Assembly (NCBI GenBank): GCA_963729605.1
Contig: CAVSNY010000007.1
Coordinates: 608,001 to 672,000 of the forward strand
DNA from: an uncultured Gammaproteobacteria bacterium
GTDB lineage: Bacteria; Pseudomonadota; Gammaproteobacteria; DRLM01
Direction: 5' to 3'
Length of the DNA: 64,000 nt
This document shows, piece after piece, positions 6,818-34,504 of the stretch; within the stretch, counting starts at the first letter, position 1, and every line of letters begins with the position of its first letter. The notes beneath the pieces are model-generated. The model saw only the letters and a program-made list of their open reading frames with translations, searched no databases and had not been told where the DNA came from. The position numbers and the translations under genes were made by a program.

Positions 6818-7623
6818 TCGTGCAATCTCCTGGCGAGCAATTGCGCCAGTCTGCCTAGCGCGCTGGCGATAAGCGCATCCAGTTTGGCATCATAGATATG
6901 CAGCAAGTGCAGCGCGGTATGCTCGTCCAGGTGGGCTCGCTCGTGCATTTCGCCCGAATCGAGATGCAAGGCGAGCCGTAGTACTGCGGCCATATCCTCC
7001 GCCAGCTTTAATGGAACGCCGTCGAAACCCCAATGGACGGCTTGGAGTCCGCGTTGATCCAGATGTTCGATAGCCAGTGCAAGCAGCCAGCCGTTGGAAA
7101 TGGTCTCCGTTTCCATTTTTTCCTGGCAATAGACGTGCCGGCGAACCAATTCGCGCCATGAGTGGGATTCCACAACACCGCGCTCCGCACTTTGCCGCCA
7201 TTTCACCAAATGGCGCATGCGCTCGGCGCGTAGGAAGGTTGCCCACTGCTCTTGCCAGTCGGGCCGATCAAGGAACTCATCCAGCAGCCGGGCCAGGTCA
7301 GTCTGTGTTTGTCCGGTCGGTTGAAGGTAGCCATACGGCGTTCCCTCTCGATCAATAAACACGATGGAGACACGCTGTTTCAGGCACAACTGCAAGGCGG
7401 ACGCGGTCCAGGTACAGCGGCCGCTGACAATCACGCGTGAGACACGGGCAATCGGGTAAGCGCCGCTGGCGCGACCGGCCATGGTAATCATGAGGGCGGC
7501 TCCTTTGGTGTCAGCGATCATGTCTGTCCCGCTGAGATAGAGTGGGCGCGCACCCGGCATGCCGGGACGATTGGCAATATATTTAGGCGAATGCGAAATG
7601 GCCGGTCCGCTCATGCCATTCAT
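6808..7623 (-). CDS. Degenerate Cas1 paralog, probably catalytically inactive
   Basis: Cas1-like N-terminal beta domain (PLYLSG...YPIARVSRVIVSG...SALQLCLKQRVSIVFIDREG). The C-terminal RGLQAVHWG...LAEDM echoes Cas1 AGLDPLVGFYH...LACDL, but there is no GxEG motif and no in-register His. Its start overlaps the cas1 stop (TAATG). Confidence 0.7.
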   Translation of the reverse strand: MNGMSGPAISHSPKYIANRPGMPGARPLYLSGTDMIADTKGAALMITMAGRASGAYPIARVSRVIVSGRCTWTASALQLCLKQRVSIVFIDREGTPYGYLQPTGQTQTDLARLLDEFLDRPDWQEQWATFLRAERMRHLVKWRQSAERGVVESHSWRELVRRHVYCQEKMETETISNGWLLALAIEHLDQRGLQAVHWGFDGVPLKLAEDMAAVLRLALHLDSGEMHERAHLDEHTALHLLHIYDAKLDALIASALGRLAQLLARRLHEWR

Positions 7624-8609
7624 TAAAACATTTCCTCATCCCCGGGCGAGTCCAGCCATGATGCACCTCGCCCGCGCAGGCGGCGTGCCAATGCCGCGCA
7701 TTGTTGCCGCAACCAGCGGCGAATAGGTACGGCGAATTCATCATAGGCTTGATAGAAGTGCGTCCGCCCCGCCTTCTGCAGCAGGCAAGCCGCGCGATCA
7801 TGGGCAAAGTGCTCCGTGCGCAGAACGCGTCCGCGGAACAAATTCCACACCCAGGCATCCAGCTTCGGGCGCAGAGGTTCGATCAAATCGCAGGCAAGTG
7901 ATTCCCGACCGTGAGCGGGTCGATGATAGAACCCCACCAGGGGATCCAGCCCGGCGATATGGCTCGCGTGTACCGCATCGAAGTGCAACAGGGTATATCC
8001 GAGAGAAAGCACCGCGTTGACGGGATCGCGTGGCGGGCGGCGGTTGCGGCCCGTGAAGCCGAGTCCTTCTGGAAACAAGGCGCATAGGGCGCGAAAATAG
8101 GCCGCCGCCGCGCTTCCTTCGAGACCGCGTGTGCGGGCGGTTACCCCATCCTCCGATTCGGTGAGCGTGCGGATGATGGGATCGATGGTGCCTAGGGCAT
8201 CGGTGAGCGGCTTGCGGCAATCGGGACGTTGAAGCATGGCTTGCCGGAGCAGCTTTGCCTGGGCCCGGGTCTTGGCCAAGACGAGACGCTGCGACCAGTC
8301 ATTACAAAAATCCTCATCCAGCGCCATCTGGCATTGCGCAAGACGCACCGCCGCTTCGTTGTGGGCGGGGCCCAACACCAGGGCGAGGCGCCGGCTGTGA
8401 CGAGCGCTCAGCAGCAGGGTCGTTACTCCCGCTTCGCCAAGGCGGGTGAGCACGCCGGTTTCGATACGGATGGCCGCGCCCTGCAACACTACCCGGTCGA
8501 GCAAGGCGATGGGAATCGTGCCGCTGCGCGCGCCTGATTGGTACAGGGCCAGCGCCGAGCCATCGGCCCTTAACTCCAAATCCGAACGGTCAAGTACCAA
8601 CGTCGCCAT
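7623..8609 (-). CDS. cas1: CRISPR-associated integrase Cas1
   Basis: RGLEGSAAAAYF, RNRRPPRDPVNAVLSLGY, GLDPLVGFYH, SLACDLIEP (catalytic E/H/D present); ATG at 8609 after GAGG. Confidence 0.96.
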   Translation of the reverse strand: MATLVLDRSDLELRADGSALALYQSGARSGTIPIALLDRVVLQGAAIRIETGVLTRLGEAGVTTLLLSARHSRRLALVLGPAHNEAAVRLAQCQMALDEDFCNDWSQRLVLAKTRAQAKLLRQAMLQRPDCRKPLTDALGTIDPIIRTLTESEDGVTARTRGLEGSAAAAYFRALCALFPEGLGFTGRNRRPPRDPVNAVLSLGYTLLHFDAVHASHIAGLDPLVGFYHRPAHGRESLACDLIEPLRPKLDAWVWNLFRGRVLRTEHFAHDRAACLLQKAGRTHFYQAYDEFAVPIRRWLRQQCAALARRLRGRGASWLDSPGDEEMF

Positions 8610-8616
8610 GATGACC

Positions 8617-8901
8617 TCACCCAAAGTAAAAATACGGGGGATCGACCGGCGGTACCGCGCACCCCAGGGCATAGGTACGGGCACTCGGGTCGAGTCGCAG
8701 CAACATGAATCGGTCTTCTTGCTCGTCGAGGATCAGCGCCATGTTGTGCAGTAATTCATTTCGTTCCGCCGGCGAGAGAAAACATTCATGCACCGACTTT
8801 TGCCCGCCGGTAGCATAACCGCGCACGAGGGCGAGCGCCGCGGCCAAACGCCTGGGAGCGGCTACATCGTAGGCCGCGAGATAGAAGTCACGTTCGCTCA
8901 T
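8617..8901 (-). CDS. cas2: CRISPR-associated Cas2 (copy a)
   Basis: YLAAYDVAAPRRL...GGQKSVHECFL. Confidence 0.9.
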   Translation of the reverse strand: MSERDFYLAAYDVAAPRRLAAALALVRGYATGGQKSVHECFLSPAERNELLHNMALILDEQEDRFMLLRLDPSARTYALGCAVPPVDPPYFYFG

Positions 8902-9694: not shown

Positions 9695-10828
9695 TCAAGG
9701 TTTAATCCAGTTTTTTAATTTCTCATCAAGCCGACCAAGATCGGCGCCGCAAACCGGGACAATGCCCAAGGCCTTGGCCAATCGCTTCTCCGCATCCCCT
9801 AATGATCGGTAACTCGCCAATAACCCTCGGGCGCCCAATCCGCCCACCCGGCGGCAAATTTCCGCGAGCTTGAACAGTGTATCGTTGGCTTTCGTCGAAC
9901 CTTCCTTGTCCATACGCGCCGTCTTACACTCGATCATGAATAGGCGATTGCGCGCCATGAAGGCGACGTCGAGTTCGTTCTTCACCCCCGAGCTATCCAG
10001 CACGACCAGATTAGCCGCCTTATCGCGGATCGCGAGTTCACCGGAAATGTCGGCGACTGTCCTGAAGACATATTGTTCCAGCCAGCCGCCCTTAGTGAAT
10101 GCGCGATCGGCCTCGCTGGCGAAGCACAGCGTGTTATCTTTCATTTCCAAAACACCCGCTTCGCTGAACTGGCGCAGCAGGGCTTCCAGGCCGCGGCTGT
10201 CCATGTGCTGTTCGGAAAGCGTGACATGCAACCGGTTCTTGTCTTCGGCCTCTTGTGCCAGCCAGTTGAGTTGGCCGAGCGGTTGTTGCAGGCTGCCGAC
10301 TTGAGTGATCAGGGTGCGCAGTAGATCATCGTGGCGCCTTTCAGACTGTGGGTGCCGAATACCTTCTTGCAACGTGAACCCATACCCGCGCAGATAATGA
10401 CGAAAACGCAATTGTTCCGACAGCTTCTGTCGAGCAGGTTTATTGTCCAACCAGATGACTTCATCCGTATCGACATCGACGTAGAATACCGACCACCCCG
10501 CGGCCTGCGCGACCGTTTGCGCGGCGAGCGCCATAAGTTTTGTGCCGCCGGTGACATTGAGTGCGATACGCAGCTTATCCCGCACGCTGGCAACTTCAAG
10601 CAATGCCTGCTCCAATTTTGCGAAATCGTGTTCATCGTCCAGCAGCACGCGGGTGGTCTTGACGCTGGCTTCTTTCAGTACGGATTCAAGGTCATCGGCA
10701 CGCGCCTGCATTTTTCCGCTGACCATCAGCACAACTTCGGTGGGCTTAAGCGCGGGATCGAGTGCCGCGAGCAGGTTTGGAGCGGCCTGAGCCGATACTA
10801 ATAGCACTTGGACATCGGCATTCAACAT
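9695..10828 (-). CDS. card1: Card1/Can2-like cOA-activated nuclease (CARF plus PD-(D/E)xK, DUF1887-like)
   Basis: LLVSAQAAPN and LNVTGGTKLM (CARF); GGWLE...NELDVAFMARNRLFMIECKT (nuclease). Confidence 0.85.
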   Translation of the reverse strand: MLNADVQVLLVSAQAAPNLLAALDPALKPTEVVLMVSGKMQARADDLESVLKEASVKTTRVLLDDEHDFAKLEQALLEVASVRDKLRIALNVTGGTKLMALAAQTVAQAAGWSVFYVDVDTDEVIWLDNKPARQKLSEQLRFRHYLRGYGFTLQEGIRHPQSERRHDDLLRTLITQVGSLQQPLGQLNWLAQEAEDKNRLHVTLSEQHMDSRGLEALLRQFSEAGVLEMKDNTLCFASEADRAFTKGGWLEQYVFRTVADISGELAIRDKAANLVVLDSSGVKNELDVAFMARNRLFMIECKTARMDKEGSTKANDTLFKLAEICRRVGGLGARGLLASYRSLGDAEKRLAKALGIVPVCGADLGRLDEKLKNWIKP

Positions 10829-11130
10829 GAAATTTTCTCCGTCCTATATTCCTCCACCCGCGCCCCGTAGCGGCGCATCGCCTCCGCCGTCAACTCGATG
10901 CCGCGCGCGTCCGGCGGCAAATCCAATGACAGGTGCAGATACCGCGCGCCGCGCGCGCAGACCTCGGCGGCAAGATTCACCGGCAGCGAACCGATCACCA
11001 CATCACCCCTGTCGACCTCTGAAACAGTAAGGTGAGCCACGAGTTTGTCGACGGTAATATTTTGCGAAACAGCCCACTCCACAGCGCCGGGGTGGCGGGA
11101 AACAAAGAAGACAGTCAGGAGCGCCCCCAT
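10822..11130 (-). CDS. csx16: CRISPR-associated Csx16 (putative ring nuclease)
   Basis: FVSRHPGAVEW...GDVVIGSLPVNLAAEVCARGARYLHLSLDLP. Confidence 0.88.
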   Translation of the reverse strand: MGALLTVFFVSRHPGAVEWAVSQNITVDKLVAHLTVSEVDRGDVVIGSLPVNLAAEVCARGARYLHLSLDLPPDARGIELTAEAMRRYGARVEEYRTEKISC

Positions 11131-11266
11131 TGCAGGCGCTCCTGCCTAAAAAAACAACACCACAAGATACCCTTCAACTGACCCTGCTCCGAAGGCGAAC
11201 AATAAATTGGGTCAACGAATCGTGAGGCCACGATCCACGTCCCGTTATTTACCTTCCTCGAAGTCC

Positions 11267-11283
11267 GTATTACAATGTAATAC
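11267..11283. promoter_or_regulatory. Putative TA operator/promoter inverted repeat
   Basis: GTATTACA-A-TGTAATAC is a perfect 8-bp inverted repeat containing a TACAAT -10-like hexamer, 33 nt before the antitoxin ATG. Confidence 0.6.
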
Positions 11284-11316
11284 AAGAGCCACTTTTGTAT
11301 CATGAGGAATTTCACC

Positions 11317-11532
11317 ATGGGGACCCTTACCATCCGTCTTGATGAGAAGCTCGAAAAGGATCTGAACCGTTTAGCCAAACGCGCGCATCGAACCAAGAGC
11401 GACCTGGCGAGGGAGATGCTACGCGAGCATGTCGCCCTGGCGCGCCTGGATGAGATTCGCCGCCGACTACAACCCAAAGCGGAAGCCGCCGGCTGGTTGA
11501 CCGATGAGGATGTCTTCCGGGATATCTCGTGA
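11317..11532 (+). CDS. Ribbon-helix-helix (CopG-like) antitoxin
   Basis: MGTLTIRLDEKLEKDLNRLAKRAHRTKSDLAREML; its stop overlaps the toxin start (GTGA). Confidence 0.85.
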   Translation: MGTLTIRLDEKLEKDLNRLAKRAHRTKSDLAREMLREHVALARLDEIRRRLQPKAEAAGWLTDEDVFRDIS

Positions 11533-11981
11533 GAGTCTTTCCCGATACCAACATCCTGGTCAGCGCAATGGTCACCCGTGGACTGTGCGAGGATCTGTTG
11601 CGTCTGCTGGTGCAAGGCCATCTGCGTGGACAGATGGAGCTTTTGATTGGCGCATCGGTCATGGATGAGCTGGAGCGTATTCTCCAGGACAAGCTGGGGG
11701 CAGACCGCGAAACCCTGGTGTTGGCGCGGGCCTTGCTCGCCGAAGGATTGAAAGTTCCGCATGGCGAACATCCCGCAACATCCATCGTCCCCGATCCGGA
11801 TGATATTCCTGTCCTCGGTTGCGCGCTGGCCGCAAAGACGGACATTTTTGTCACCGGTGACAAGGCGCTGCTCAATCTGAAGGTTGTTGAGGGCATGGCC
11901 ATCCTGTCGCCAAGGCAGATGTGGGAACGGTTGAGCATCACGAGCAAGAAAAGTGATACGCCTGAGACATCACTGTTCTAA
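11529..11981 (+). CDS. PIN-domain (VapC-like) toxin
   Basis: MRVFPDTNILVSA...E...DPDDIPVLGCA...FVTGDKALL acidic PIN motifs. Confidence 0.88.
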   Translation: MRVFPDTNILVSAMVTRGLCEDLLRLLVQGHLRGQMELLIGASVMDELERILQDKLGADRETLVLARALLAEGLKVPHGEHPATSIVPDPDDIPVLGCALAAKTDIFVTGDKALLNLKVVEGMAILSPRQMWERLSITSKKSDTPETSLF

Positions 11982-13697
11982 CATTTCTAACCACGACCGG
12001 AATTCGACTTTACGTTCTTTTTTAGATGGCCAATCAGTCCAGTCTTTTATCGTCTCGCGCAGAAGTATAGCTGCCACGTTACGTGCCGCTTTGTCATTCC
12101 ATTCTAATGTTTGCTTGAAAAACTCAAGCCGCTTTTGATCGAAAGCACTTCCAGCCTGATAGCGCCCTTTCTGTTTTTGTACCAAATAAAATTCGCGGAA
12201 TACTTCGACTGCCTGCATTTCGGGAGTCAACGTAGCCAGCCGTGCCTGACGCCCGGCCTCTTCTCGTGCGAGGCGGGCTTCTTCTTCGGCGCGCAGCCGG
12301 ATTTTTTCTGCTTCCTCGCGACGTTTCACTTCAGCCCCGATACGCATCTGCTCGAACTTAACCTGCTTCTCGACAAGCTTCGCAGCTAAGGCGCGGGCGC
12401 TGGCCAAATGTGGCTCACAGGCTGCCTTTAGCTCAGGCCATTCTTGAATTGACGTATCCACAGGTTGCAGTTCTACCAGTAACCAACCAAAGGGCAACAG
12501 GTTGGTGGATTGATCTTTTATGTCGGCGGCGAGCCAGAGGGTTTTGGCGGACTCAGCATATTCTGGTTTCTCATCTTTACTCTTCATGATCTTGATGTCG
12601 CGTACGCCCCGCAGAGTGATGGAGTCTGCTCCGGAATGACGCCCTACACGCAACAGGAAAGCCTCGCCTCTTTGCACACTTGCCCGCGCGATAGTCATAA
12701 GCGCCCGCACAGCCTTGTCCCAAGCGGAATCAAGGTAACCCCGCTCTCGCATGAGTTTGTTTTCGGCCTCCAGAATAGGCATGTAGAAGGCGTTGCAAGC
12801 GCGTGCTATGTCTTCGATTTTAAAGCGCAGGTCGTTAGCCGGAAGCTGGCGCTGCCCTTTGTGGCTGGTTTCGGATAAGCCGTCTACGGATTGCACATTG
12901 ACTTGACCGGCAAAGGCGCGGTAACGCCAACCGGAGATGCATTCGAGAATTTGATAGAGTTCCTTGCTCTCGGCTTGGGATTTTCGGATGTTACCTTGCT
13001 TATCTTTTACCTCGTTCTTCTTGCGATTAACAGCAACGTGTATCTGGGCGGCGGGCAAACCGGACTCCTCATGCCACGCGGCATCGGAGAGTTGCGTCAG
13101 GCGCATCGGGTCGAGCTCAAACTTTCCTGCTTGGTACCGGAATAGGCGTTGTTGCAGTTCCAGGTTATTTTCATTGCGTGGTCTGCCTGTGCGACGATCT
13201 TCGACTTTCTGCAGGCCCATGCCATCATTCACTCCGTCCAACAATGCTGTTCGAATCGCTCCCTTGAGCGATGAACCATACAGCACGGGTAACCGGGTGA
13301 TAGGATTGTAGCTGGTGCGGTCAATCTCCATCCGGTTCAACACCTGCTTGCCGTCGGCTTCGCGGTTTACAGTCTGGCCGATCCGGCTGGCGTAAAGCTT
13401 TGCCACGCCGGACAGCACAGGGATACGGTTGGTTGCACAAGGCATGATCTGTTCGCGCCGGTCGTGGAAATAGCGCTGAACGGCCTTGATCATATCCGTA
13501 TCCGGCTTACGGTTAGCAATATCAAGTAACACCTTGCGGTCGCTGGCCGACAGCGCATCCACCACGGATCCGGTATCGAACTCGTACAGCACTCCATCCT
13601 CGATGACGTAGTTGGTGGGTTCGTAACTCTCGCCCGTGCCGATATGGATGGGCGACAAGGGGGTAATGAACATTCGGTAACTTTCAAATCTGCTCAT
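11970..13697 (-). CDS. csm5: Type III-A RAMP subunit Csm5 with C-terminal extension
   Basis: TPLSPIHIGTG, YGSSLKGAIRTA, LRVGRHSG, LPFGW. Confidence 0.88.
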   Translation of the reverse strand: MSRFESYRMFITPLSPIHIGTGESYEPTNYVIEDGVLYEFDTGSVVDALSASDRKVLLDIANRKPDTDMIKAVQRYFHDRREQIMPCATNRIPVLSGVAKLYASRIGQTVNREADGKQVLNRMEIDRTSYNPITRLPVLYGSSLKGAIRTALLDGVNDGMGLQKVEDRRTGRPRNENNLELQQRLFRYQAGKFELDPMRLTQLSDAAWHEESGLPAAQIHVAVNRKKNEVKDKQGNIRKSQAESKELYQILECISGWRYRAFAGQVNVQSVDGLSETSHKGQRQLPANDLRFKIEDIARACNAFYMPILEAENKLMRERGYLDSAWDKAVRALMTIARASVQRGEAFLLRVGRHSGADSITLRGVRDIKIMKSKDEKPEYAESAKTLWLAADIKDQSTNLLPFGWLLVELQPVDTSIQEWPELKAACEPHLASARALAAKLVEKQVKFEQMRIGAEVKRREEAEKIRLRAEEEARLAREEAGRQARLATLTPEMQAVEVFREFYLVQKQKGRYQAGSAFDQKRLEFFKQTLEWNDKAARNVAAILLRETIKDWTDWPSKKERKVEFRSWLEMLEQ

Positions 13698-14665
13698 GCG
13701 GCCTCCCTGTTTCCGGGTAGTGCAATCCCCACGACCGGGGCATAACCCTGATGCACCGTGCCGGGAATAGTTTTGGACAACCGGCCGTCTCCACCCAATC
13801 CCTTACCAGTGAACAATGCACACAGTTCAGTTCCGATCTGCGGCGTTAGCACGGCACCGGTATTGGCCAGCAGCACAGGGGTTTTGAAAGGACCGCCCTG
13901 ACCATGCACGCCGATATCGCCATGGCGGCCGAACCGGGTAAAGGGCTGGTAGAAACAACGATCCGCATGCCACAACAAACCTTGCGGTGCGCAGGGAGCC
14001 AGCGTCAACCAAGCGTCGGCGTGAGCTTGGTTGGGAAAACCGAAGGGCTCAAATTCTTTTATTTCAAACTTGCCCAAGCCGATGCTGGCGTCACGCCCAA
14101 AGCCGACCGCGCCGATGTCAGCGAGTAGTTCCCGCAACTCGTCGGCGGCGAGCCGGGATTCATCCAGTACTAGGTAGACATCAAGGACAATTTCCCGCAC
14201 GTCCTTGTCGCCAAACCAAAGCTGGTTCATAGCATAGGGCGCGAACTGACCTTCGCCCGTAGTGCCGGTGTTGCGGTTCAGAGTGTTGTGCGGTTGCGGG
14301 TGTTCGGCCGCCGCTCCGCTGGGAATAGCGCTGGACGACAGACAATGCTCCAGCCAGGCCTCGACTGGCGCATGGAACTGGTCGATCGGCATCCAGGAAC
14401 GTTTTTTGACTGCCTTGCGGTCGGCACCCTTCACTTCATCGAACCAATGACCGGGCAACACCGGTCGCGGCAGATATCCTGTGGGAAAGGCGTCGGAAAC
14501 AACGACAAATGGCCCGCCCTGACTGTAACCATCCAGCAGTTCAACAAGACGCGCCTCGCCATAGCGATTACGCACCGCCCAACACAATTGGCCAAATAGG
14601 GTGTCGCCCATAGGTTTGGTGCCGAAGGCCGATAACGGAGTGATGCGAGCACGATAAGAACGCAT
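13694..14665 (-). CDS. csm4: Type III-A RAMP subunit Csm4
   Basis: GDTLFGQLCW, VSDAFP, HNTLNR, GFGRDASIGLGKF. Confidence 0.9.
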   Translation of the reverse strand: MRSYRARITPLSAFGTKPMGDTLFGQLCWAVRNRYGEARLVELLDGYSQGGPFVVVSDAFPTGYLPRPVLPGHWFDEVKGADRKAVKKRSWMPIDQFHAPVEAWLEHCLSSSAIPSGAAAEHPQPHNTLNRNTGTTGEGQFAPYAMNQLWFGDKDVREIVLDVYLVLDESRLAADELRELLADIGAVGFGRDASIGLGKFEIKEFEPFGFPNQAHADAWLTLAPCAPQGLLWHADRCFYQPFTRFGRHGDIGVHGQGGPFKTPVLLANTGAVLTPQIGTELCALFTGKGLGGDGRLSKTIPGTVHQGYAPVVGIALPGNREAA

Positions 14666-14675
14666 GGTCGTCGCC

Positions 14676-15398
14676 TCAGGCTACCTGGGTGGTTTTAGAA
14701 AGTTGAATCGCGCCGAGTTCCGGCAACAAGTCCCGGTCCACCAGCATCAGATTCGCGAACTTCACCTTGCCATATCCGCGCGAACCGGAACCGCCCAAGC
14801 CGGTGAGTTCCATGAGCTTGAGGCCGCGTAAGACCGTGGATAACAAATCTTCGCCATCGTGTACGCGCAGAGTGAGATTGAACTCGAAGCGTGCGCCGGC
14901 CGGTACCCGCTCGGTGTTGCGCGGATGTACTGCCACGCCGCGGATGCGGTCGATCATATTCTCCATCTTGGTCTCGGTGAGCAACAGGTTACGACGGTTC
15001 ATTTCTTCTACCCAGGTCTTGTCCAAAGAGCAATCCCAGAAGGCTAGACGAGTTGGACCAATCTCCTTTACCAAGGAGTCCTCGGTTTTTGGGTTAGGCG
15101 CACCTCCGAATAGTTTGAGTATATTTTTTGCCTGCATTTCGCTTTGCATTCCTTTTTTGATGTCCAGGAATCCAAGCGGCTCACCTTTTTCATTGATAAT
15201 GCCCAATTCCCATTCCAGCAAGCTGCGAATCTTGCCCTTGATACTGGAGCCGGGGATATATGGTTCGAGCGTAAGCGGATGCTTGATGACCGGATTGTCG
15301 GTGCCGCCGATGTGCATTTCGTTGTTGCCGCTGCCGATATGCAGGCCGGTGACGAGTTCCAGGGTGCCGGTGAGTTTTTGGATGGCAGTGAGTTTCAT
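14676..15398 (-). CDS. csm3: Type III-A backbone endoribonuclease Csm3
   Basis: TGLHIG, IGGTDNPVIK (catalytic Asp), YIPGSSIKGKIRSLLE, LGGSGSRGYGKV. Confidence 0.95.
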   Translation of the reverse strand: MKLTAIQKLTGTLELVTGLHIGSGNNEMHIGGTDNPVIKHPLTLEPYIPGSSIKGKIRSLLEWELGIINEKGEPLGFLDIKKGMQSEMQAKNILKLFGGAPNPKTEDSLVKEIGPTRLAFWDCSLDKTWVEEMNRRNLLLTETKMENMIDRIRGVAVHPRNTERVPAGARFEFNLTLRVHDGEDLLSTVLRGLKLMELTGLGGSGSRGYGKVKFANLMLVDRDLLPELGAIQLSKTTQVA

Positions 15399-15413
15399 GT
15401 CTTTTCTCCAGAA

Positions 15414-15875
15414 TCAGTCGTTACCAGGGCGTTCCTGTTTATAGAAACCCATGAAGGCTTCCCAGAATAATTTGCAGGCGGTGAGAGTTTCAGGGTCTTT
15501 CACTTCGCCGAGAGTGTGCTGCAACAGGTTGACGAATGTACGGTCCACAAGCTTGCGACCCTCGGCATAGGCAGCCTTGGCGTTGATCATGCGAATGAAG
15601 GGCAGATATTCGTCGAATTTCTGTGGTTGCTGATTGAGGCGTCCCTCCCATGCAACGAGTTCGTCGTAGAAACGACGTAACTGAGTGGACTTGTTGCTCT
15701 GGTTATCACCACGCGAAACAGCTTGAGCGGCATTCTGTGCCTGTGTATTGAACAGTTCAGGATCAAGTGGCTTTGCCAGCTTGATCGCGTTGAACTGTGG
15801 TGCAGGCGTAGCACCTGCTTGACGTTGTTGGGTGCGCTGTCCCTGTGGTGGGCGTTGTTGGCGGTGGTCAGGCAT
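15414..15875 (-). CDS. csm2: Type III-A small subunit Csm2
   Basis: NKSTQLRRFYDEL...AKAAYAEGRK...FWEAFMGFYK; ATG at 15875 after GAGGAG. Confidence 0.92.
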   Translation of the reverse strand: MPDHRQQRPPQGQRTQQRQAGATPAPQFNAIKLAKPLDPELFNTQAQNAAQAVSRGDNQSNKSTQLRRFYDELVAWEGRLNQQPQKFDEYLPFIRMINAKAAYAEGRKLVDRTFVNLLQHTLGEVKDPETLTACKLFWEAFMGFYKQERPGND

Positions 15876-15886
15876 ATCTCGTCTCC

Positions 15887-18628
15887 TCAATCACGTCGTT
15901 GATACAGGTAAGTGAACAGGGCGATTTTGTAAGCTGCCCCATGTGCCTCAATGCCGAGTCCGGCGATTTCCGTTCCGAGTTCTGATTGCAGACGGCGGCG
16001 TTTCTCCTCAGTCTCTTGCCGATCCCCGGTGCTTTTGATTTTGGTTTCCACCATGCGACGTGTGCGATAAGCGAACTGCGAATGCCACAAGGCGTTTTCG
16101 GGACGCTGGCTGATCTTCCCGGCCATGTCTGTGTAACTAAGCAAACTGTAGAGGTAACCGGTGGATAAGGCGTGCTCGCCTGCCACCCGTGACAGTCCGT
16201 CCTCGCGGTTCATGAGATGATCGAATCTCTCCCACGCAACCGAATGATCGAACGCGCTGACCGCGTTTTTAGGCGGGGGTTGCCGGTTATCCGGGTTGTG
16301 TGTTTTGGCACTGTCCAGCGCCTTTTCCGCGAGACGCGCCAGTTGCCGGATAGGCAGGCCCGGTTTGGTCATGGAGAGTCCCGCGGAAAAGTGGATGTCC
16401 GGGTTCTCCGCCACGTAGCGTCTGAAATCGTCCTTCATGCGTTGGGCCAGCTTGATGGTCGAATGCCAGGGACCGATGAGAAAGAAATCGTCACCGCCCG
16501 CGAACACCGTGTAGGTGTTTGGGAATTCGCTTTTGCACAACCAAGGCAGATAAATGGCGAAGAAGGCATTGACCTGCCGGGACAGGCCGGCCATGCGGGC
16601 GAAGGTCGGGCGCTCCAGACCCTTTTCAAAAATCCGCCCCAGATTGTCTACGTCCCCCTTGAGGGTCATGAGAGCGGTGACCCCAATGTAGCGATCTCGA
16701 CCGTCGCTGGTTTTGAGTGCGTGACCTTCCTCGTCGAACAGTGGTTGCCGGTCGTCGCAGGCGAGGTGGTTGAGCGTCTTGATCTCATCTGGATGCGGCT
16801 CGAAGTCTTCCACGTTCTCGATGCCGTGGTACCGGTCGGCTTCCCAGGCATTCATTGCACCGAAACGCGGAACGTAGGCATTGATATGACGGCGCGCATA
16901 GCCGCCCCATAACGGAGTATCGAGACTCTCCGGCAGCGAGAAGTCCCACGCACGCAGCAGATTGCCGATGCGGGCTTCATTGCCGAACTTGCCGGTGTCT
17001 TCCTCGCTCTCAGTGAAGTTCACCCGGAAACCGAAGATGGGCAGCCTCAGGGTGTGATGATCGAGACCATCGCGCGTGATGAGGACGCGTTTCTGCGTAG
17101 CAAGCCACTTGCCGGTGTCAATCTGATCGGCGGCAAGCCTGCACATGCCATCCATTTCGGCCGGAGAGCGTCCATCGATCTTGCACTCGCCATGTTCAAA
17201 TCGGTCTAGAAAGCCCTTGAACACGGCTGGAGTAATTGCGCCGTCACAGAGGCTCAGGCGGGTAAGCTTGGTTTCCTCCAGTTGCTTGAACAATTGCGTG
17301 ATCAGATCGCGGAAAGGACTTTCACCCTCCTTGCCGTGGCGAAAATCATTGGCCCGAGCCGGCAGCCAGGCCAGACCGATGCCGGACTGTCCGTAGGTAT
17401 GCTCCAGGAACCAGATATCCAATTCTTTTTGCACGTCTCGGAGTTTGGCGATAGTGTCCGGGGTGTTGGGCGCGACGATGAGAAACTTGCCGGCGGCATT
17501 GACCACTTGACTGATGGCGGGCAACGCCAGCGCCTCCAACACTTTGAGGGCGGCCAGCTCGCTAAGCAGTGAAACGTAAAACGAGCGGCCACGCAGCAAT
17601 TTGGCGGCGCGCTTCTGGGTCTGCCCGCCCTCGGCGAAAATAAAGTCCTGGATACCGAAGAAATCACCCTGCACCAACAGGAATTTCTTTGTGTCCCAGG
17701 CGGCATCCGATTCCGGCGTACCCACCCGCTCGCGGTCCCACTGAGCACGCAGTTGTTGTTTGGTGCTTTGCGTATCGTGACCCTGGTCGGTGTGGTATCG
17801 CCACAGCGCGACGGCAAGCCCGGCCGTGGTCTTGGAGTGGTCGTAGAGCGAGACATCGGGCCGCACATTGCCACCGATGCCCGCTGTCGCCGAAGGAATC
17901 GCATGTGTGAATGTGAGCCAGAGACTATCAAAGTGGTCAAGCCAGAGCGGCAAACTTATCCTGTGACTGGCGGGAATAACTTTCAGGCCATCTAGAAACT
18001 GTTTCCACATATCCAAATAACGTGCCTGCGCGGCAACTTTGTCCTCGTTTTCGCAGGATTCCTTCTTGACAGGGAAGATGGCTTTAGGAGAGAGGGCCTT
18101 GAGCGGATAGCGCCAATTCTGCGCCTCCGGTCTGTCCTCCAGGCGGACATGTTCCAGCAACGTCCACTGTCGAGTGGTGTAGTGATTAAGTTTCTTTTGT
18201 TCATCATCCGGCGAGGCGTTGTAGGTCTCAAACTCCTCCCGCTCGAAACCCGATGCCAGGCGATCGGCCGTGGCAATGATCCATTGCAGAAAAGAATCCG
18301 GCCGATGATGGCGGGCAGCGGCGTTGATAATCGAGTCGTCGGCATTGCGTTCCCGCCACGGCGCAAAAGGTGTCATGTCGTTGCCGACGATGTCCGGAAG
18401 ATGTGCTTCCAGCAGGTCCATGCCAATGGCGGTGTAGGCGGCGTGGATATGTGTGCGGCGACCATTGTACTCAGGGCAGTACAGCAGTTCATTGATGGAC
18501 TGACGAGTATTACCATCGGTATCTTTCTCTTTCGCCTCCTGGATGCGCGCACGTTCAGCGAACTTGCCCAGGTCGTGCAAGTAAGCCGCCAGTGCCACGC
18601 GACAGGAAGCATTCATCTTTGGTGTCAT
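15887..18628 (-). CDS. cas10: Cas10/Csm1 (HD nuclease plus Palm cyclase)
   Basis: AYLHDLGKF (HD), DVSLYDHS, GDFFGIQDFIF, KGDVDNLG, VFAGGDDFFLIGPW (intact GGDD). Confidence 0.97.
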   Translation of the reverse strand: MTPKMNASCRVALAAYLHDLGKFAERARIQEAKEKDTDGNTRQSINELLYCPEYNGRRTHIHAAYTAIGMDLLEAHLPDIVGNDMTPFAPWRERNADDSIINAAARHHRPDSFLQWIIATADRLASGFEREEFETYNASPDDEQKKLNHYTTRQWTLLEHVRLEDRPEAQNWRYPLKALSPKAIFPVKKESCENEDKVAAQARYLDMWKQFLDGLKVIPASHRISLPLWLDHFDSLWLTFTHAIPSATAGIGGNVRPDVSLYDHSKTTAGLAVALWRYHTDQGHDTQSTKQQLRAQWDRERVGTPESDAAWDTKKFLLVQGDFFGIQDFIFAEGGQTQKRAAKLLRGRSFYVSLLSELAALKVLEALALPAISQVVNAAGKFLIVAPNTPDTIAKLRDVQKELDIWFLEHTYGQSGIGLAWLPARANDFRHGKEGESPFRDLITQLFKQLEETKLTRLSLCDGAITPAVFKGFLDRFEHGECKIDGRSPAEMDGMCRLAADQIDTGKWLATQKRVLITRDGLDHHTLRLPIFGFRVNFTESEEDTGKFGNEARIGNLLRAWDFSLPESLDTPLWGGYARRHINAYVPRFGAMNAWEADRYHGIENVEDFEPHPDEIKTLNHLACDDRQPLFDEEGHALKTSDGRDRYIGVTALMTLKGDVDNLGRIFEKGLERPTFARMAGLSRQVNAFFAIYLPWLCKSEFPNTYTVFAGGDDFFLIGPWHSTIKLAQRMKDDFRRYVAENPDIHFSAGLSMTKPGLPIRQLARLAEKALDSAKTHNPDNRQPPPKNAVSAFDHSVAWERFDHLMNREDGLSRVAGEHALSTGYLYSLLSYTDMAGKISQRPENALWHSQFAYRTRRMVETKIKSTGDRQETEEKRRRLQSELGTEIAGLGIEAHGAAYKIALFTYLYQRRD

Positions 18629-18680
18629 TGCATTTCCTCCCAATGCCGATTGTCATCTTTCCCCGCGCCGACTGCCGTTC

Positions 18681-18695
18681 CGGCAAGCTTGCGGC
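18681..18695. promoter_or_regulatory. GGCAAGCTTGC box 2, upstream of cas10
   Basis: CGGCAAGCTTGCGGC in the intergenic region, identical over 15 bp to box 3. Confidence 0.6.
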
Positions 18696-18725
18696 AGGCT
18701 GCCGCGCGTGACGCCGTTCGATGAT

Positions 18726-19868
18726 TCATAACCTTGGCTCCAGCGCCGCGAAGCGGATCGTCTCGGGCTCGAGTGTCAGCCGATAGCGGCGCGGGCGGGT
18801 GCCGCCGTCATCGATCAGGTAAGGTGCGGCCGCCGGACCCAGCGATTTCTTGAGTAGTTTTCGCAGCTTGCTCAGGTGCGACGAGAAGTATTCGCCGTCC
18901 ATGCCCTTTTTCAGGGCCCGTTCGGTGTGATCGCCGTCGGCCATATCGCCGACGATTCGGCGCAGTTCGTCCAAATACCACCGCGACCATTCGGTGTCGG
19001 GCACGTCTTTGGACGGTGCGGGTAACGCCGGCTCGTTACGCGAGGCGCGGTGCGCGAACACAGCCAGCAGTGCCAGTTCCGCCGGTGGCAAAGGGATGAT
19101 CTGATCCGCGGCGCGGATGCGCCGGTTCGCAAGGTCGAGCACCAGTTCCTTCGGTCCGAGCACCCGTTGGGCAGCGGCTACGCTGGCGCTGAAAGAGGTC
19201 GCGCCCTCGCGCAGCCGGTCGTCCAGGCCATGACGCATGCGCACGAAGGGGATCTCCGCCAACTCCACGATCGCATCCCGGCAATCGAGCGGACGCGGCT
19301 TGGTCTCGCGGGTCTGGATCACGCGCTGGTCACGGGTCGGGTAGTAGAACTCGGGGTGCGATTCGAAGGGTGCGGACACCAGTACATGCGACAGCCGGTC
19401 CTGCGGCCGACCGTAGAGTGACAACGCATAACCGAGATAATAGCCCATGGTCTTGCGGCCGCCGGCCAGCGAGACATGCATGGCCGTTTCCGGGTCGGCG
19501 GTCAGTTCGCGCACGATGTCCGCAATGAAATCGGCAACCCGTTCGTTGTTCGCCGGCGTGCGGATGTCGTCGAGCGGTTGGCCGTCGACATCGGTCACGA
19601 TGTGCAGGGTCGCGTCGTCGAAGCGCATCGCGGGCAGATCGTATTCGCGGCAGAGGAGATGGAACCAGCCCGGATCGTCAGACAGTAGATTCAGCCGCGC
19701 ATGCGCGGCGCCTTCGCCGGTGGTAATGACGTGGATCTCGGTGGGTATAAAGGCAACCCGTTTTTGAGCGGGTTTCACGGCCAAGGCATATAAAGTCTCC
19801 GTCACGATCTGCGGCGACAGGCCGGTGACGGCGAGCAGGATTCGTTTTGGATATTCGTATGGCTGCAT
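18726..19868 (-). CDS. NE0113-family CARF protein (ring-nuclease-like) fused to a C-terminal winged HTH
   Basis: KRILLAVTGLSPQIVTETLYAL, HVSLAGGRKTMGYY, DRLSHVLV, FESHPEFYYP; the C-terminal YFSSHLSKLRKLL...RRYRL resembles an OmpR-type wHTH; no HEPN RxxxxH seen. Confidence 0.82.
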   Translation of the reverse strand: MQPYEYPKRILLAVTGLSPQIVTETLYALAVKPAQKRVAFIPTEIHVITTGEGAAHARLNLLSDDPGWFHLLCREYDLPAMRFDDATLHIVTDVDGQPLDDIRTPANNERVADFIADIVRELTADPETAMHVSLAGGRKTMGYYLGYALSLYGRPQDRLSHVLVSAPFESHPEFYYPTRDQRVIQTRETKPRPLDCRDAIVELAEIPFVRMRHGLDDRLREGATSFSASVAAAQRVLGPKELVLDLANRRIRAADQIIPLPPAELALLAVFAHRASRNEPALPAPSKDVPDTEWSRWYLDELRRIVGDMADGDHTERALKKGMDGEYFSSHLSKLRKLLKKSLGPAAAPYLIDDGGTRPRRYRLTLEPETIRFAALEPRL

Positions 19869-19884
19869 ATTTTTCGCTGGTAGG

Positions 19885-20967
19885 TCAACCCGCCTGGCCT
19901 GATATGGGCTCGACGGCCCACCCCGAGGCATCGGTCATGGCGGGCACATCCGCCCCCGTTTGCTTCGGCAAGCTTGCGGCCGGCTCGAGCGTGTAGCGGC
20001 CTAATCCCATGCTGGTGCCCTTGCCGGCGTGCGTCCACTGACCGAGCCACAGATACGGCCAGAAGGCCGCCAACTCGCAGTCATCCAGCGATGCGGTTCC
20101 GGTCAATCCACCCATTTCCATGGTGGTCTGTTGACGGGTGCTGTAGCGCGTCCAGTCCTTCCAATGCAGTTCGGCCTTCGAAAAAGATACCGCGCGCGCT
20201 TGGTGGGTGAGGCCGGCGAAATCCGTCTCCAGCGGAGTGTCGGTATGAAAATAACTCAGCATGGAGATGCGCCTTAACAGGTTGCCGAACAGGTCGGCGA
20301 AGCGGAATTGGTCCGGCCCGACGTACTGCTCCGCGCGCCGCAGCCGCAGCGGGGTATGAAACCTCAGCCGCAGGCTTGAGGGCGCCGGCGGTGTTTCCAA
20401 TAATCGAGGCGCCTCCGCCGCCAATTCACTGCCCGGCCGGTAAATCTCCCGCCAGGCATCGGTCGTCGGATCGTCAGCCTGCTCGACGGCGATCAGGTCG
20501 AGCGGGGTGCGACCCGTGCCGAGGCCCTCGGCGCCTGCGCGCGCGAAGGCGTGAATCATGTAAGCCAGGGATTGGTTGGCGCGACCGAATAGCGTGAGGC
20601 CGAGGAGGTGTTCCGCGTCAGGGCCGATTTGCGGGGTCATGCCGTCTTCGAGTTCGATCAGGAACGGGTGCGGCGCGGCCGAATAACGCCGCATCTTGGC
20701 GGTCTCCGCGGGAGGCGGTGTTTCAAACAGATAAGGATAGGGACAGGACCGATAGAGCAAGCAGCCGCCGCAGGATTTCATGCGCGTGACGCAAACGGTG
20801 CGTTTGAGCGCATGGCCGAAGGCGCCACGCCAGGCCGAGCCGGCGTATTCGGGAAGCTTCGGTGTTCCCCGCGGCCTAAAGCGCAGGCGATAACGTGCCA
20901 GCGGAAGAACGGGTTTTACCCGCGATGAGGGTCCCGTGACGGTCTTATTGTTGTTGTGCCGGGACAC
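19885..20967 (-). CDS. cas6: crRNA-processing endoribonuclease Cas6
   Basis: YAGSAWRGAFG, CxxC...C insert, HPF, TPLRL, G-rich loop HAGKGTSMGLG. Confidence 0.92.
   Translation of the reverse strand: MSRHNNNKTVTGPSSRVKPVLPLARYRLRFRPRGTPKLPEYAGSAWRGAFGHALKRTVCVTRMKSCGGCLLYRSCPYPYLFETPPPAETAKMRRYSAAPHPFLIELEDGMTPQIGPDAEHLLGLTLFGRANQSLAYMIHAFARAGAEGLGTGRTPLDLIAVEQADDPTTDAWREIYRPGSELAAEAPRLLETPPAPSSLRLRFHTPLRLRRAEQYVGPDQFRFADLFGNLLRRISMLSYFHTDTPLETDFAGLTHQARAVSFSKAELHWKDWTRYSTRQQTTMEMGGLTGTASLDDCELAAFWPYLWLGQWTHAGKGTSMGLGRYTLEPAASLPKQTGADVPAMTDASGWAVEPISGQAG
19966..19980. promoter_or_regulatory. GGCAAGCTTGC box 3, in the cas6 3' tail upstream of the CARF-wHTH gene
   Basis: CGGCAAGCTTGCGGC; encodes AASLP just after the conserved Cas6 G-loop. 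Confidence 0.55.
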
Positions 20968-32941: not shown

Positions 32942-33004
32942 TTCCATTCGCAATCCCTTTTGCTTTTGCATACACTCTCGCAGCGTCGAGGGCGAGAGAT
33001 CATC

Positions 33005-34363
33005 ATGGGCGAGGCGGCGGAAAGGGCGGAACGCGAACACCATTTGCGCCGGTTTACCCAGGCGCTGGGCAGCGGTGCGCTCTCCAATGTCCGCCGCATG
33101 CTCAACAGTCTTCATCCCGCCGAGATCGCCCACCTCCTCGAATCACTGCCCGCCGATGAACGCAAGCTGGCCTGGGAATTGGTCCTGCCGGAGCACGAAG
33201 GCGATGTGCTGCTGCACGTCAGCGACAATGTTCGCGCCAGCCTGATCCGCGAGATGGCCCACCACGAGCTGGTGGCCGCCACCGCCGGGCTGGAGACCGA
33301 CGACCTCGCCGATTTTCTGCGCGACCTGCCCGGCGCGGTGGTGACCCAGGTCCTCCACTCCATGAGCGAGCAGGACCGCGAGCGCCTGCAAGCGGTGTTG
33401 TCCTACCCCGAGGATACCGCCGGCGGTTTGATGAACACCGACACTATCACCGTGCGGCCCGGCGTCACCCTCGACGTGGTGCTGCGTTATCTGCGTTGGC
33501 GCGCGGCCATTCCCGACATGACCGACAGCCTGATCGTGGTCAAACGCGACGACACCTACTTGGGCCTGCTGGTGATCAACGATTTGCTGACCAAGGATCC
33601 CGACCTCACCGTGGGCGAGGTGATGCTGCGCGACGTGGAACCCATCGACGCCATGATGCCCGCCAACGAGGTGGCCAATCTGTTCGAGCACCGCGACTTG
33701 ATCTCGGCGCCGGTGGTCGATGATCACGGCAAGCTGCTCGGCCGCATCACCATCGACGACGTGGTGGACGTCATCCGCCAGGAAGCGGACCACTCCTTGA
33801 TGAGCATGGCGGGTCTGTCGGAGGAGGAAGACCTCTTCGCGCCGGTGGGCCAGGCCAGCCGGCGCCGTGCGGTGTGGCTGGGGGTGAATCTCGCCACCGC
33901 CTTGCTGGCCTCGTGGGTGATCGGCCTGTTCGACGCCGCCATCGAAAAGGTGGTGGCGCTGGCGGTGTTGATGCCGGTGGTCGCCAGCATGGGCGGCATC
34001 GCCGGCAGTCAGACCCTGACGCTGGTGATCCGCGGCATGGCGCTCGGCCAGCTCAGCCGCGACAACGCCCGCGATTTTTTCAACAAAGAGCTGGCGGTGG
34101 GTGCGGTCAACGGGCTGATCTGGGCGCTGGTGGTGGCGGTGATCGCCGGACTGTGGTTCGAGGATATTTCCATCGCCTGGATCCTCGGCCTCGCCATGGT
34201 GGTCAACCTGATCACCGCGGCAGCGGCGGGCGCCACCATCCCGCTGTTGTTGCGTCGCGCCGGGGTCGATCCCGCGCTGGCGGGGTCGGTGGTACTCACC
34301 ACCGTCACCGACGTGGTGGGTTTCGTGGCCTTTCTCGGCCTCGCGAGTCTGGTGTTTTTGTGA
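33005..34363 (+). CDS. mgtE: Magnesium transporter MgtE
   Basis: YPEDTAGGLM, GRITIDDVVD, MGGIAGSQ, DPALAG...TTVTDVVGF. Confidence 0.95.
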   Translation: MGEAAERAEREHHLRRFTQALGSGALSNVRRMLNSLHPAEIAHLLESLPADERKLAWELVLPEHEGDVLLHVSDNVRASLIREMAHHELVAATAGLETDDLADFLRDLPGAVVTQVLHSMSEQDRERLQAVLSYPEDTAGGLMNTDTITVRPGVTLDVVLRYLRWRAAIPDMTDSLIVVKRDDTYLGLLVINDLLTKDPDLTVGEVMLRDVEPIDAMMPANEVANLFEHRDLISAPVVDDHGKLLGRITIDDVVDVIRQEADHSLMSMAGLSEEEDLFAPVGQASRRRAVWLGVNLATALLASWVIGLFDAAIEKVVALAVLMPVVASMGGIAGSQTLTLVIRGMALGQLSRDNARDFFNKELAVGAVNGLIWALVVAVIAGLWFEDISIAWILGLAMVVNLITAAAAGATIPLLLRRAGVDPALAGSVVLTTVTDVVGFVAFLGLASLVFL

Positions 34364-34437
34364 GGCCGCCCCGCGGTGTTTCAACGCGCAGTCCGCTTCG
34401 CTTTCTCGGCCTCGCGAGTCTGGTGTTTTTGTGAGGC
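34330..34437. repeat. Exact 37-bp direct repeat flanking a unique 34-bp insert
   Basis: CTTTCTCGGCCTCGCGAGTCTGGTGTTTTTGTGAGGC at 34330-34366 and 34401-34437; flanking bases differ on both sides. Confidence 0.95.
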
Positions 34438-34504
34438 GGTGAAGGCGCGGTCGCGCGATTTATCAACCCGGTATTGGTATTCAAACCAGACCTGATCGGA
34501 GCGT

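What the first reader, a model, noticed from the sequence alone, without database searches (positions are those of the whole stretch)
34330..34437. Probable off-target Cas1-Cas2 integration (neo-CRISPR unit) at the mgtE stop codon
Seen: an exact 37-bp duplication encloses a unique 34-bp insert (CGCCCCGCGGTGTTTCAACGCGCAGTCCGCTTCG). This equals the array repeat length and a typical spacer length. An ungapped alignment to the repeat gives 14/37 identities, clustered at positions 10-12 (CCT), 19-24 (TCxGGT) and the leader-side terminal C. The mgtE reading frame is preserved. ATTCAAAC (34479) and GACCTGAT (34489), both 8-mers of the repeat, lie just downstream and may be chance. Known: Cas1-Cas2 duplicates its target by a ruler mechanism and can integrate at repeat-like off-target sites. 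Inference: a natural fossil of array birth that shows which repeat positions this integrase reads.
Basis: partly seen in the sequence, partly recalled or inferred. Interest (0 to 1): 0.8.

Follow-up and report, generated by a model that had tools for sequence, protein, structure and literature searches.

The report
Stray CRISPR spacer insertion behind mgtE
A 71-base insertion at the end of a magnesium-transporter gene has exactly the size of one CRISPR repeat plus one spacer, so it is most likely a spacer that the cell's own CRISPR integrase wrote into the wrong place; a second insertion of this kind elsewhere in the genome breaks another gene.

Summary
An exact 37-bp direct repeat (34330-34366 and 34401-34437) encloses a unique 34-bp insert, and mgtE keeps its own stop codon. 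The 71 bp are a recent insertion. Contigs from 4 of 4 metagenome runs laid (3 studies), about 97-99% identical, skip exactly these 71 bp. Two same-genus genomes also have a single copy.

The genome holds two CRISPR systems with 37-nt repeats and a modal 34-nt spacer. One is the type III-A array in the window. The other is a much larger type I-C array on another contig, so the responsible integrase is ambiguous.

I found a second clean unit of 28+33+28 bp on contig C4. It matches the resident type I-F array (28-nt repeat, 32-33-nt spacers) and frameshifts an enolase-superfamily gene. A 98%-identical homologue is intact there.

Only 4 clean short duplications with a unique insert exist in the genome, and 2 of them have resident CRISPR dimensions.

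Off-target Cas1-Cas2 integration is the best explanation (about 0.8).

Not supported: that the site resembles the repeat or shows which positions the integrase reads. No protospacer was found. No public reads carry the filled allele, so an assembly artefact is unlikely but not excluded.

The parts
34330..34366 (.). Copy 1 of the duplicated 37-bp target. It holds the last 31 coding bases of mgtE, the TGA stop (34361-34363) and 3 further bases.
34367..34400 (.). Unique 34-bp insert (spacer-sized, 71% G+C). No other copy in the genome and no source found.
34401..34437 (.). Copy 2 of the duplicated 37-bp target, now non-coding, downstream of the mgtE stop.
   Evidence: Contigs of 4 runs join 34329 to 34401 and skip 71 bp.
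32960..34363 (+). mgtE magnesium transporter gene (467 aa), left intact by the insertion.
4497..6362 (-). Type III-A CRISPR array, one of two candidate source systems: 27 identical 37-nt repeats and 26 spacers of 31-37 nt (34 nt in 12 of 26). Transcription on the minus strand is inferred from the side where the cas genes and leader lie.
6363..6484 (-). A+T-rich putative leader between cas2 and the array (inferred from position only).
6485..6817 (-). cas2 (110 aa).
   Evidence: TIGR01573, 35.8 bits, cut-off 24.5
6808..7623 (-). Second, Cas1-like gene (271 aa). Only the N-terminal Cas1 domain matches.
7623..8684 (-). cas1 (353 aa), full-length match.
9695..19931 (-). Type III-A effector and accessory genes: Card1-like nuclease (9695-10828), RAMP (11970-13697), Csm4 (13694-14665), RAMP/Csm3-like (14676-15398), Csm2 (15414-15890), Cas10/Csm1 (15887-18643), Cas_NE0113 (18726-19931).

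Best explanation
A Cas1-Cas2 spacer integrase of this cell inserted a 34-bp prespacer into ordinary chromosomal DNA at the 3' end of mgtE instead of at a leader-repeat junction. The integrase belongs either to the type I-C system on contig C6 or to the type III-A system in the window. The mechanism below is inferred from established Cas1-Cas2 chemistry and is not shown here. The two 3'-OH ends of the prespacer attacked opposite strands 37 bp apart, a distance set by the integrase's own ruler. Gap repair then copied the 37 bp between the cuts, giving target-insert-target (37+34+37). Copy 1 carries the whole end of mgtE including its stop, so the event is neutral and survived. The unit is not a working array: it has one spacer, no leader, and a 'repeat' unlike any resident repeat. 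The same process, run by the type I-F integrase, made a 28+33+28 unit on contig C4 that frameshifts an enolase-superfamily gene.
For: Shown:

(1) The duplication is exactly 37 bp and the insert exactly 34 bp. 37 nt is the repeat length of both the III-A array (27 of 27 repeats) and the I-C arrays (187 of 187). 34 nt is the modal spacer length in both, 12 of 26 and 96 of 185.

(2) The 71 bp are derived. In 4 of 4 runs laid (3 studies), one contig per run is collinear on both sides and skips exactly 34330-34400, with 37 bases fitting either side. Other letters were 7 in 335, 3 in 216, 6 in about 259 plus a 6-base gap, and 6 in 274. Same-genus genomes G001 and G003 have one copy.

(3) Adaptation genes look intact. 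Four Cas1 ORFs have no stops. Cas1c scores 495 bits with Cas4 and Cas2 alongside; the III-A locus has Cas1 and Cas2; Cas1f scores 509 bits with Cas2-3.

(4) There is an independent second unit at C4:305113-305201: an exact 28-bp duplication around a unique 33-bp insert. The resident I-F array has 28-nt repeats and spacers of 32 nt (285) or 33 nt (9). The unit splits an MR_MLE gene. Removing 61 bp in silico gives a 379-aa ORF. P0001, 379 aa and 98% identical, reads straight across the site.

(5) Specificity. Outside the arrays the genome has 26 exact direct repeats of 20 nt or more with a 10-100-nt gap. Of these, 13 carry REP-type motifs, and 9 more either have related flanks (8) or are tRNA copies (1). 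Only 4 are clean, and 2 of those 4 have resident CRISPR dimensions.

(6) From papers (passages read): off-target full-site integration that keeps repeat-length spacing occurs with P. furiosus Cas1-Cas2 (PMC6698737). A type III-A Cas1-Cas2 is promiscuous without HU (PMC13769266). Genomic off-target integration by E. coli Cas1-Cas2 is cited.
Against: The duplicated 37-mer does not resemble either 37-nt repeat or the leader-repeat junctions beyond background. Published in vitro off-target sites did share bases with the repeat.

No protospacer, and hence no PAM, was found for either insert.

The filled allele rests on this assembly alone. Among the 24 runs listed, none holds half or more of the sampled words, so no independent reads confirm it.

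The 33-nt insert of the second unit belongs to the minor I-F spacer class (9 of 296).

The integrase responsible for the mgtE unit cannot be told from the sequence.
Confidence: 0.82

Rival explanations
1. Another DNA repair or recombination accident, such as a double-strand break repaired with filler DNA and a duplication, happens to have these lengths.
For: The site has no repeat-like or leader-like sequence, and no protospacer was found. Two other clean short duplications with non-CRISPR dimensions exist: 26/79 at C4:137398 and 22/62 at C5:59975.
Against: It would have to hit 37+34 by chance, and a second event would have to hit 28+33 by chance, both being sizes of resident systems. The inserts are not copied from anywhere in the assembled genome; the best other places have 11 and 9 mismatches. 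I know of no repair pathway that gives a 37-bp duplication around a 34-bp foreign filler (from my own knowledge, not tested).
Confidence: 0.08
2. Assembly or sequencing artefact: the 71 bp are not in the real chromosome.
For: Only the empty allele is seen in public data. All 4 laid runs skip the 71 bp, and no listed run holds half or more of the sampled words of the stretch.
Against: I know of no artefact that inserts a novel 34-mer between two perfect copies of the flanking 37 bp, and none that would do it twice with the sizes of two different resident CRISPR systems. The laid runs are relatives at about 97-99% identity, not the source sample, so they do not contradict the filled allele.
Confidence: 0.06
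3. An attL/attR or transposon footprint: the remnant of a mobile element that integrates at the 3' end of mgtE.
For: Integrative elements often target gene 3' ends and carry a copy of the end, which gives direct repeats.
Against: The insert is only 34 bp and has no terminal inverted repeats (read by eye). It has no other copy in the genome. The downstream neighbour is a hydantoinase/caprolactamase-like gene, not an integrase. Near-identical relatives are collinear without any element. Target duplications of transposons are far shorter than 37 bp (from my own knowledge). This model also does not explain the 28+33+28 unit inside a gene.
Confidence: 0.03

Closest known systems
Neo-CRISPR loci from non-canonical (off-target) spacer integration by E. 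coli type I-E Cas1-Cas2 (Nivala, Shipman and Church 2018, Nat Microbiol 3:310). The paper is not held; I know it only through citing passages and recall.
   Same: A spacer-sized insert flanked by a repeat-length duplication of ordinary genomic DNA, outside any array, in a cell with an active integrase.
   Different: These are natural units in an environmental genome, not cells over-producing Cas1-Cas2. The systems differ (I-C or III-A, and I-F). There is one spacer per site. Empty alleles are seen in near-identical wild relatives. No leader-like or IHF-like context was detected. According to the passage, natural evidence was so far 'circumstantial' in two other species.
In vitro off-target full-site integration by Pyrococcus furiosus Cas1-Cas2 (PMC6698737; abstract and passages read)
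   Same: Integration at non-CRISPR DNA keeps the repeat-length spacing between the two attack sites (30-31 bp there; 37 and 28 bp here).
   Different: The preferred off-target sites there shared positionally conserved bases with the repeat, especially at the borders and centre. The mgtE site here shows no such similarity above background. The I-F-sized site shows only marginal, post hoc similarity.
Promiscuous integration by type III-A Cas1-Cas2 of Thermotoga profunda in the absence of HU (PMC13769266; abstract and passages read)
   Same: It shows that a III-A integrase by itself discriminates poorly between CRISPR and non-CRISPR DNA, which makes the window's III-A module a plausible author.
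   Different: That is in vitro work on plasmids. Nothing here shows which module acted.
Target-site duplications of transposons and casposons
   Same: The same logic applies: staggered strand transfer followed by gap repair duplicates the target.
   Different: The duplication here is 37 bp (or 28 bp) and the cargo is only 33-34 bp with no transposase and no terminal inverted repeats. From my own knowledge, duplications of transposons are typically 2-15 bp.

Membership tests
Off-target Cas1-Cas2 integration product (neo-CRISPR unit) | Target duplication equal to the length of a resident CRISPR repeat | tested here: met
   37 bp exact, against 37-nt repeats in the III-A (27 of 27) and I-C (187 of 187) arrays.
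Off-target Cas1-Cas2 integration product (neo-CRISPR unit) | Insert of resident spacer length | tested here: met
   34 bp, the modal spacer length: 12 of 26 in III-A and 96 of 185 in I-C.
Off-target Cas1-Cas2 integration product (neo-CRISPR unit) | Apparently intact adaptation genes in the same genome | tested here: met
   Cas1c, Cas4 and Cas2 on C6; Cas1, a Cas1-like gene and Cas2 in the window; Cas1f and Cas2-3 on C4. None has an internal stop. Activity itself was not tested.
Off-target Cas1-Cas2 integration product (neo-CRISPR unit) | The empty site (single copy, no insert) is the ancestral state | tested here: met
   Contigs of 4 of 4 laid runs (3 studies) skip exactly 71 bp. G001 and G003 have a single copy.
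Off-target Cas1-Cas2 integration product (neo-CRISPR unit) | The insert derives from a protospacer, with the system's PAM for type I | tested here: inconclusive
   No source was found in the own genome, phages, plasmids, IMG/VR, JGI metagenomes, GTDB genomes or 400 genomes of the class. In the control, 0 of 26 and 0 of 30 genuine spacers hit the phage collection either.
Off-target Cas1-Cas2 integration product (neo-CRISPR unit) | The site resembles the repeat or the leader-repeat junction (seen in vitro; not strictly defining) | tested here: not met
   Ungapped identity is 12-14 of 37, with genome tails of 0.04-0.15. Local alignment gives P of 0.85-1.0 against the 37-nt repeats. Leader-anchored comparison gives P of 0.06-0.18.
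Off-target Cas1-Cas2 integration product (neo-CRISPR unit) | The filled allele is confirmed by independent reads | tested here: inconclusive
   None of the 24 listed runs holds half or more of the sampled words. The source reads were not available.
Functional CRISPR array | Several repeats that the resident Cas6/Cas5 can process, a leader, and more than one spacer | tested here: not met
   There are two copies and one spacer. The 'repeat' is unlike any resident repeat, and no leader-like flank is present.
attL/attR remnant of an integrative element, or transposon footprint | An element or recombinase at the site in this genome or in relatives; terminal inverted repeats; a short duplication | tested here: not met
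   The insert is 34 bp and unique. Relatives are collinear without an element. No integrase lies next to the site.
Tandem duplication by slippage | The duplicated unit is contiguous (A-A or AB-AB) and all of its sequence is present in the ancestor | tested here: not met
   The structure is A-B-A, and B is absent from relatives and from the rest of the genome.

The most novel reading that the evidence does not exclude
In wild bacteria, spacer integrases of at least two different CRISPR types write spacers into ordinary chromosomal DNA that does not look like a repeat, and they still keep their ruler-defined duplication length. This genome carries about 507 spacers in three systems. It has two fresh events, one neutral behind mgtE and one that knocks out a gene. 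If so, off-target adaptation is a recurrent natural source of insertional mutation and the raw material for new arrays, and it can be recognised in any genome by its size signature.
Probability: 0.4. Interest if true: 0.75.

Novelty: new member of a known kind. Interest (0 to 1): 0.6.

Why it matters
Off-target spacer integration is established in the laboratory. According to the one statement I could read, evidence from natural genomes was only circumstantial.

Here two freshly made units sit in one environmental genome. Each has the dimensions of a different resident system, and empty alleles exist in near-identical relatives. That gives three things:

- Natural evidence that the integrase's ruler works on DNA that does not resemble a repeat, for 37-nt (I-C or III-A) and 28-nt (I-F) systems.
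- A visible fitness cost of adaptation, since a gene is frameshifted.
- Defined natural substrates (the empty mgtE and enolase-family sites) for integration assays.

It also supplies a simple size signature (duplication = repeat length, insert = spacer length) that could be searched for across genomes to measure how often arrays are seeded this way.

Tried and rejected
Repeat likeness of the mgtE site. Ungapped identity to both 37-nt repeats in both orientations was 12-14 of 37, with genome tails of 0.039-0.154. Gapped local alignment against all three repeats gave P of 0.43-1.0. Comparison anchored on the last 15 leader bases plus the repeat gave P of 0.18 (III-A) and 0.06 (I-C). I rejected all of these as evidence.

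1.9% of 100-nt windows carry two or more 8-mers of the III-A repeat. They lie in opposite orientations and are also covered by the contigs that lack the insert. I treat them as chance.

Spacer-end base preferences of the three arrays give no usable bias for orienting or assigning the inserts.

Protospacer searches for the 34-mer found no significant match:
- own genome
- phages
- plasmids, where all E values were 0.9 or more
- exact scans of IMG/VR, JGI metagenomes and GTDB genomes
- BLAST of window:34354-34413 in 400 genomes of the class, best E 0.002, which is chance level over 400 genomes; one further genome was not scored

Protospacer searches for the 33-mer also found no significant match. 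I did no mismatch-tolerant scan of the large collections, because it would have meant typing sub-stretches or altered versions of the inserts.

Self-targeting: 0 of 503 genuine spacers examined match the genome outside the arrays at 5 or fewer mismatches.

Public reads: no listed run holds half or more of the stretch, and no cover of 34365-34395 was seen in the 4 runs laid. This says nothing about whether the filled allele is real.

A third candidate at C5:236520 (two 37-nt units 71 bp apart, 31 of 37 identical) turned out to be part of an intergenic cluster of 17-18-bp tandem units. I rejected it.

The MAFFT alignment of the site with G001 and G003 put the gap in an unhelpful place. Pairwise comparison shows that the G001 downstream sequence weakly resembles what follows copy 2 and does not resemble the insert. 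The intergenic region is too diverged for more than that.

I looked by eye for an IHF-type consensus near either site and saw none; no tool was used.

Nivala et al. 2018 is not held. Supplementary files were not consulted and may hold lists of natural neo-CRISPR candidates that bear on novelty.

My statement that natural examples are scarce rests on searches and the passages, not on an exhaustive reading.
Full report
WHAT IS THERE

At window 34330-34366 and 34401-34437 the same 37 bases occur twice without a mismatch, 71 bp apart. At up to 3 mismatches these are the only two matches in the window, and 0 of 100 shuffles gave two. The 34 bases between them (34367-34400) occur once in the window and once in the 3.48-Mb genome, where the next best place has 11 mismatches. 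The bases next to the two copies differ on both sides, so the sizes are exactly 37 and 34.

The mgtE ORF (32960-34363, 467 aa; TIGR00400 at 295 bits, cut-off 232.75) ends at a TGA inside copy 1. The gene is therefore untouched, and copy 2 lies in the 3' untranslated region.

THE CRISPR SYSTEMS OF THE GENOME

The window is C7:608001-672000 of a 7-contig genome. Three systems are present.

(a) Type III-A, in the window.
- The array has 27 identical 37-nt repeats at 4497-6362.
- Spacer lengths are 31 (3), 32 (3), 33 (6), 34 (12), 35 (1) and 37 (1).
- Next to it lie cas2, a Cas1-like gene, cas1, a Card1-like nuclease and csm genes, all on the minus strand.

(b) Type I-C, on C6.
- There are 156 + 31 identical 37-nt repeats, split by an insertion sequence.
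- Spacers are 34 nt in 96 of 185 and 35 nt in 66.
- The genes cas3, cas5c, cas8c, cas7c, cas4, cas1c and cas2 lie beside it.
- An A+T-rich leader lies on the cas side and a degenerate partial repeat at the far end.

(c) Type I-F, on C4.
- There are 297 repeats of 28 nt, with spacers of 32 nt (285) or 33 nt (9).
- The operon cas1f, cas2-3, csy1-3, cas6f is complete.

All four Cas1 ORFs are open. Two different adaptation modules therefore make 37+34 units.

THE 71 bp ARE A RECENT INSERTION

I laid the contigs of four metagenome runs (three studies) on 33900-34800. In each run one contig fits both sides of the site and joins 34329 to 34401. It skips exactly 71 bp, with 37 bases that fit on either side of the joint. 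Other letters were 7 of 335, 3 of 216, 6 of about 259 plus a 6-base gap, and 6 of 274. These strains are about 97-99% identical here and carry the empty site.

Among 40 relatives searched, 26 have a match to the region. Same-genus genomes G001 and G003 align up to the end of one copy and have no second copy or insert. What follows in G001 weakly resembles what follows copy 2 here and does not resemble the insert.

No public run holds the filled allele. The insertion itself therefore rests on this assembly.

A SECOND UNIT

I scanned the whole genome for the size signature. One scan used 37-nt windows 66-76 bp apart with at least 31 identities. The other used 28-nt windows 58-62 bp apart with at least 25 identities.

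Besides the mgtE unit, the scan found C4:305113-305140 and 305174-305201. This is an exact 28-bp duplication around a unique 33-bp insert, the size of the I-F repeat and of its minor spacer class.

The unit lies inside an enolase-superfamily gene with MR_MLE_N and MR_MLE_C domains. The upstream ORF runs into the insert and goes out of frame. A second ORF resumes with the same nine residues. Removing the 61 bp in silico gives one 379-aa ORF. P0001, 379 aa and 98% identical over the shared part, reads straight across the site, as do P0002 and P0003. None of the 40 relatives carries the gene at the DNA level.

HOW SPECIFIC IS THE SIGNATURE?

Outside the arrays the genome has 26 exact direct repeats of at least 20 nt with a gap of 10-100 nt.
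- 13 carry the genome's REP-type palindrome motifs.
- 9 more either have related flanks, so they are parts of longer imperfect repeats (8), or are tRNA copies (1).
- 4 are clean, with sizes 26/79, 22/62, 28/33 and 37/34.

Two of the four clean cases have the dimensions of resident CRISPR systems. A third candidate on C5 proved to be an iteron-like tandem cluster.

WHAT THE SITES LOOK LIKE

However, 3.9% of all genomic 37-mers reach that value. The other three comparisons give tails of 0.09-0.15. Gapped local alignment is at or below background (P 0.85-1.0 against the two 37-nt repeats). The flanks do not resemble the leader ends. The two downstream 8-mers are within chance. The site therefore does not reveal which repeat positions the integrase reads.

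The 28-mer is marginally similar to the I-F repeat (P 0.046) and, oddly, to the I-C repeat (P 0.009). An 11-mer identical to the core of the I-F repeat lies 2 nt after copy 2. The genome has 92 such places, so about 0.002 are expected within 40 nt of a given site. I noticed this after the fact and treat it as a lead only.

SOURCE OF THE INSERTS

None was found for the 34-mer or the 33-mer. This says little. 0 of 26 III-A spacers and 0 of 30 I-C spacers tested hit the phage collection either, and no genuine spacer matches the host genome (0 of 503).

MECHANISM

The best-supported explanation is off-target spacer integration. The two 3' ends of a 34-bp prespacer attack opposite strands 37 bp apart, and gap repair duplicates the interval. 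The sizes, the derived state, the intact modules and the second unit are shown. The chemistry is inferred from established knowledge of Cas1-Cas2 and from papers whose passages I read:
- P. furiosus Cas1-Cas2 keeps 30-31-bp spacing at non-CRISPR sites (PMC6698737).
- A III-A integrase is promiscuous without HU (PMC13769266).
- E. coli Cas1-Cas2 integrates off-target in the genome (citing passages). The original paper is not held.

Which module acted at mgtE is open. If off-target events scale with array growth, the I-C module (185 spacers against 26) is the likelier author. That is a prior, not evidence.

The unit is not a functional array: it has one spacer, no leader, and a 'repeat' that no resident Cas6 or Cas5 should recognise.

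RIVALS

A repair accident would have to hit resident CRISPR sizes twice with inserts that match nothing in the genome. An assembly artefact cannot be excluded without the source reads, but I know of no artefact of this shape. An att or transposon remnant is contradicted by the 34-bp unique insert, the collinear relatives and the absence of any recombinase.

VERDICT

The main interpretation is supported at about 0.8. Attribution to the window's array and the claim about 'positions read' are not supported. It is a new, natural member of a known kind of event, made more interesting by the second unit from a different system, which breaks a gene.

Noticed in passing
G000 contig C4:305113-305201 (locus L015:3114-3202), outside the window: A second unit with the CRISPR size signature: an exact 28-bp duplication around a unique 33-bp insert, the dimensions of the resident type I-F array. 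It frameshifts an enolase-superfamily (MR_MLE) gene, and a 98%-identical homologue (P0001) is intact across the site. An 11-mer identical to the core of the I-F repeat lies 2 nt after copy 2.
   Followed up: yes
G000 contig C6:198796-213393 (loci L013, L014): A type I-C system with 37-nt repeats, which I recall as long for this subtype (not tested). It has 187 repeats. The array is split by an insertion sequence of about 1.3 kb (C6:209920-211212), and a degenerate partial repeat sits at the trailer end.
   Followed up: partly
window 6808-8684 (minus strand): Two adjacent Cas1 genes in the type III-A locus. One is a full-length 353-aa Cas1. The other is a 271-aa protein in which only the N-terminal Cas1 domain matches. 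It may be a partner subunit or a decayed copy.
   Followed up: no
whole genome G000: Three CRISPR systems (I-F, I-C, III-A) with 297 + 187 + 27 repeats, about 507 spacers in a 3.5-Mb genome. Almost all repeats are identical within each array. None of 503 spacers examined matches the host genome.
   Followed up: partly
window 34502-34542 and 34627-34654, and many places genome-wide: REP-like palindromes of the type CCCCTCTCCC...GGGAGAGGGG. They account for 13 of the 26 short exact direct-repeat pairs outside the arrays. One metagenome contig (run X3) replaces 34513-34624 with 35 other letters, so this intergenic REP region varies between strains.
   Followed up: partly
G000 contig C5:236460-236660 (locus L016:3455-3660): An intergenic cluster of four 17-18-bp tandem units (TTAACTTCACTGCCTTC-like) followed by two 37-nt units 71 bp apart (31 of 37 identical). 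It shares TTCACTGCC with the 5' half of the I-F repeat. It looks iteron-like and is not a clean duplication. Its function is unknown.
   Followed up: partly
window 9695-10828 (minus strand): A Card1-like CARF nuclease and further CARF-type ORFs lie between the adaptation genes and the csm genes. This suggests cyclic-oligoadenylate signalling in this III-A system.
   Followed up: no
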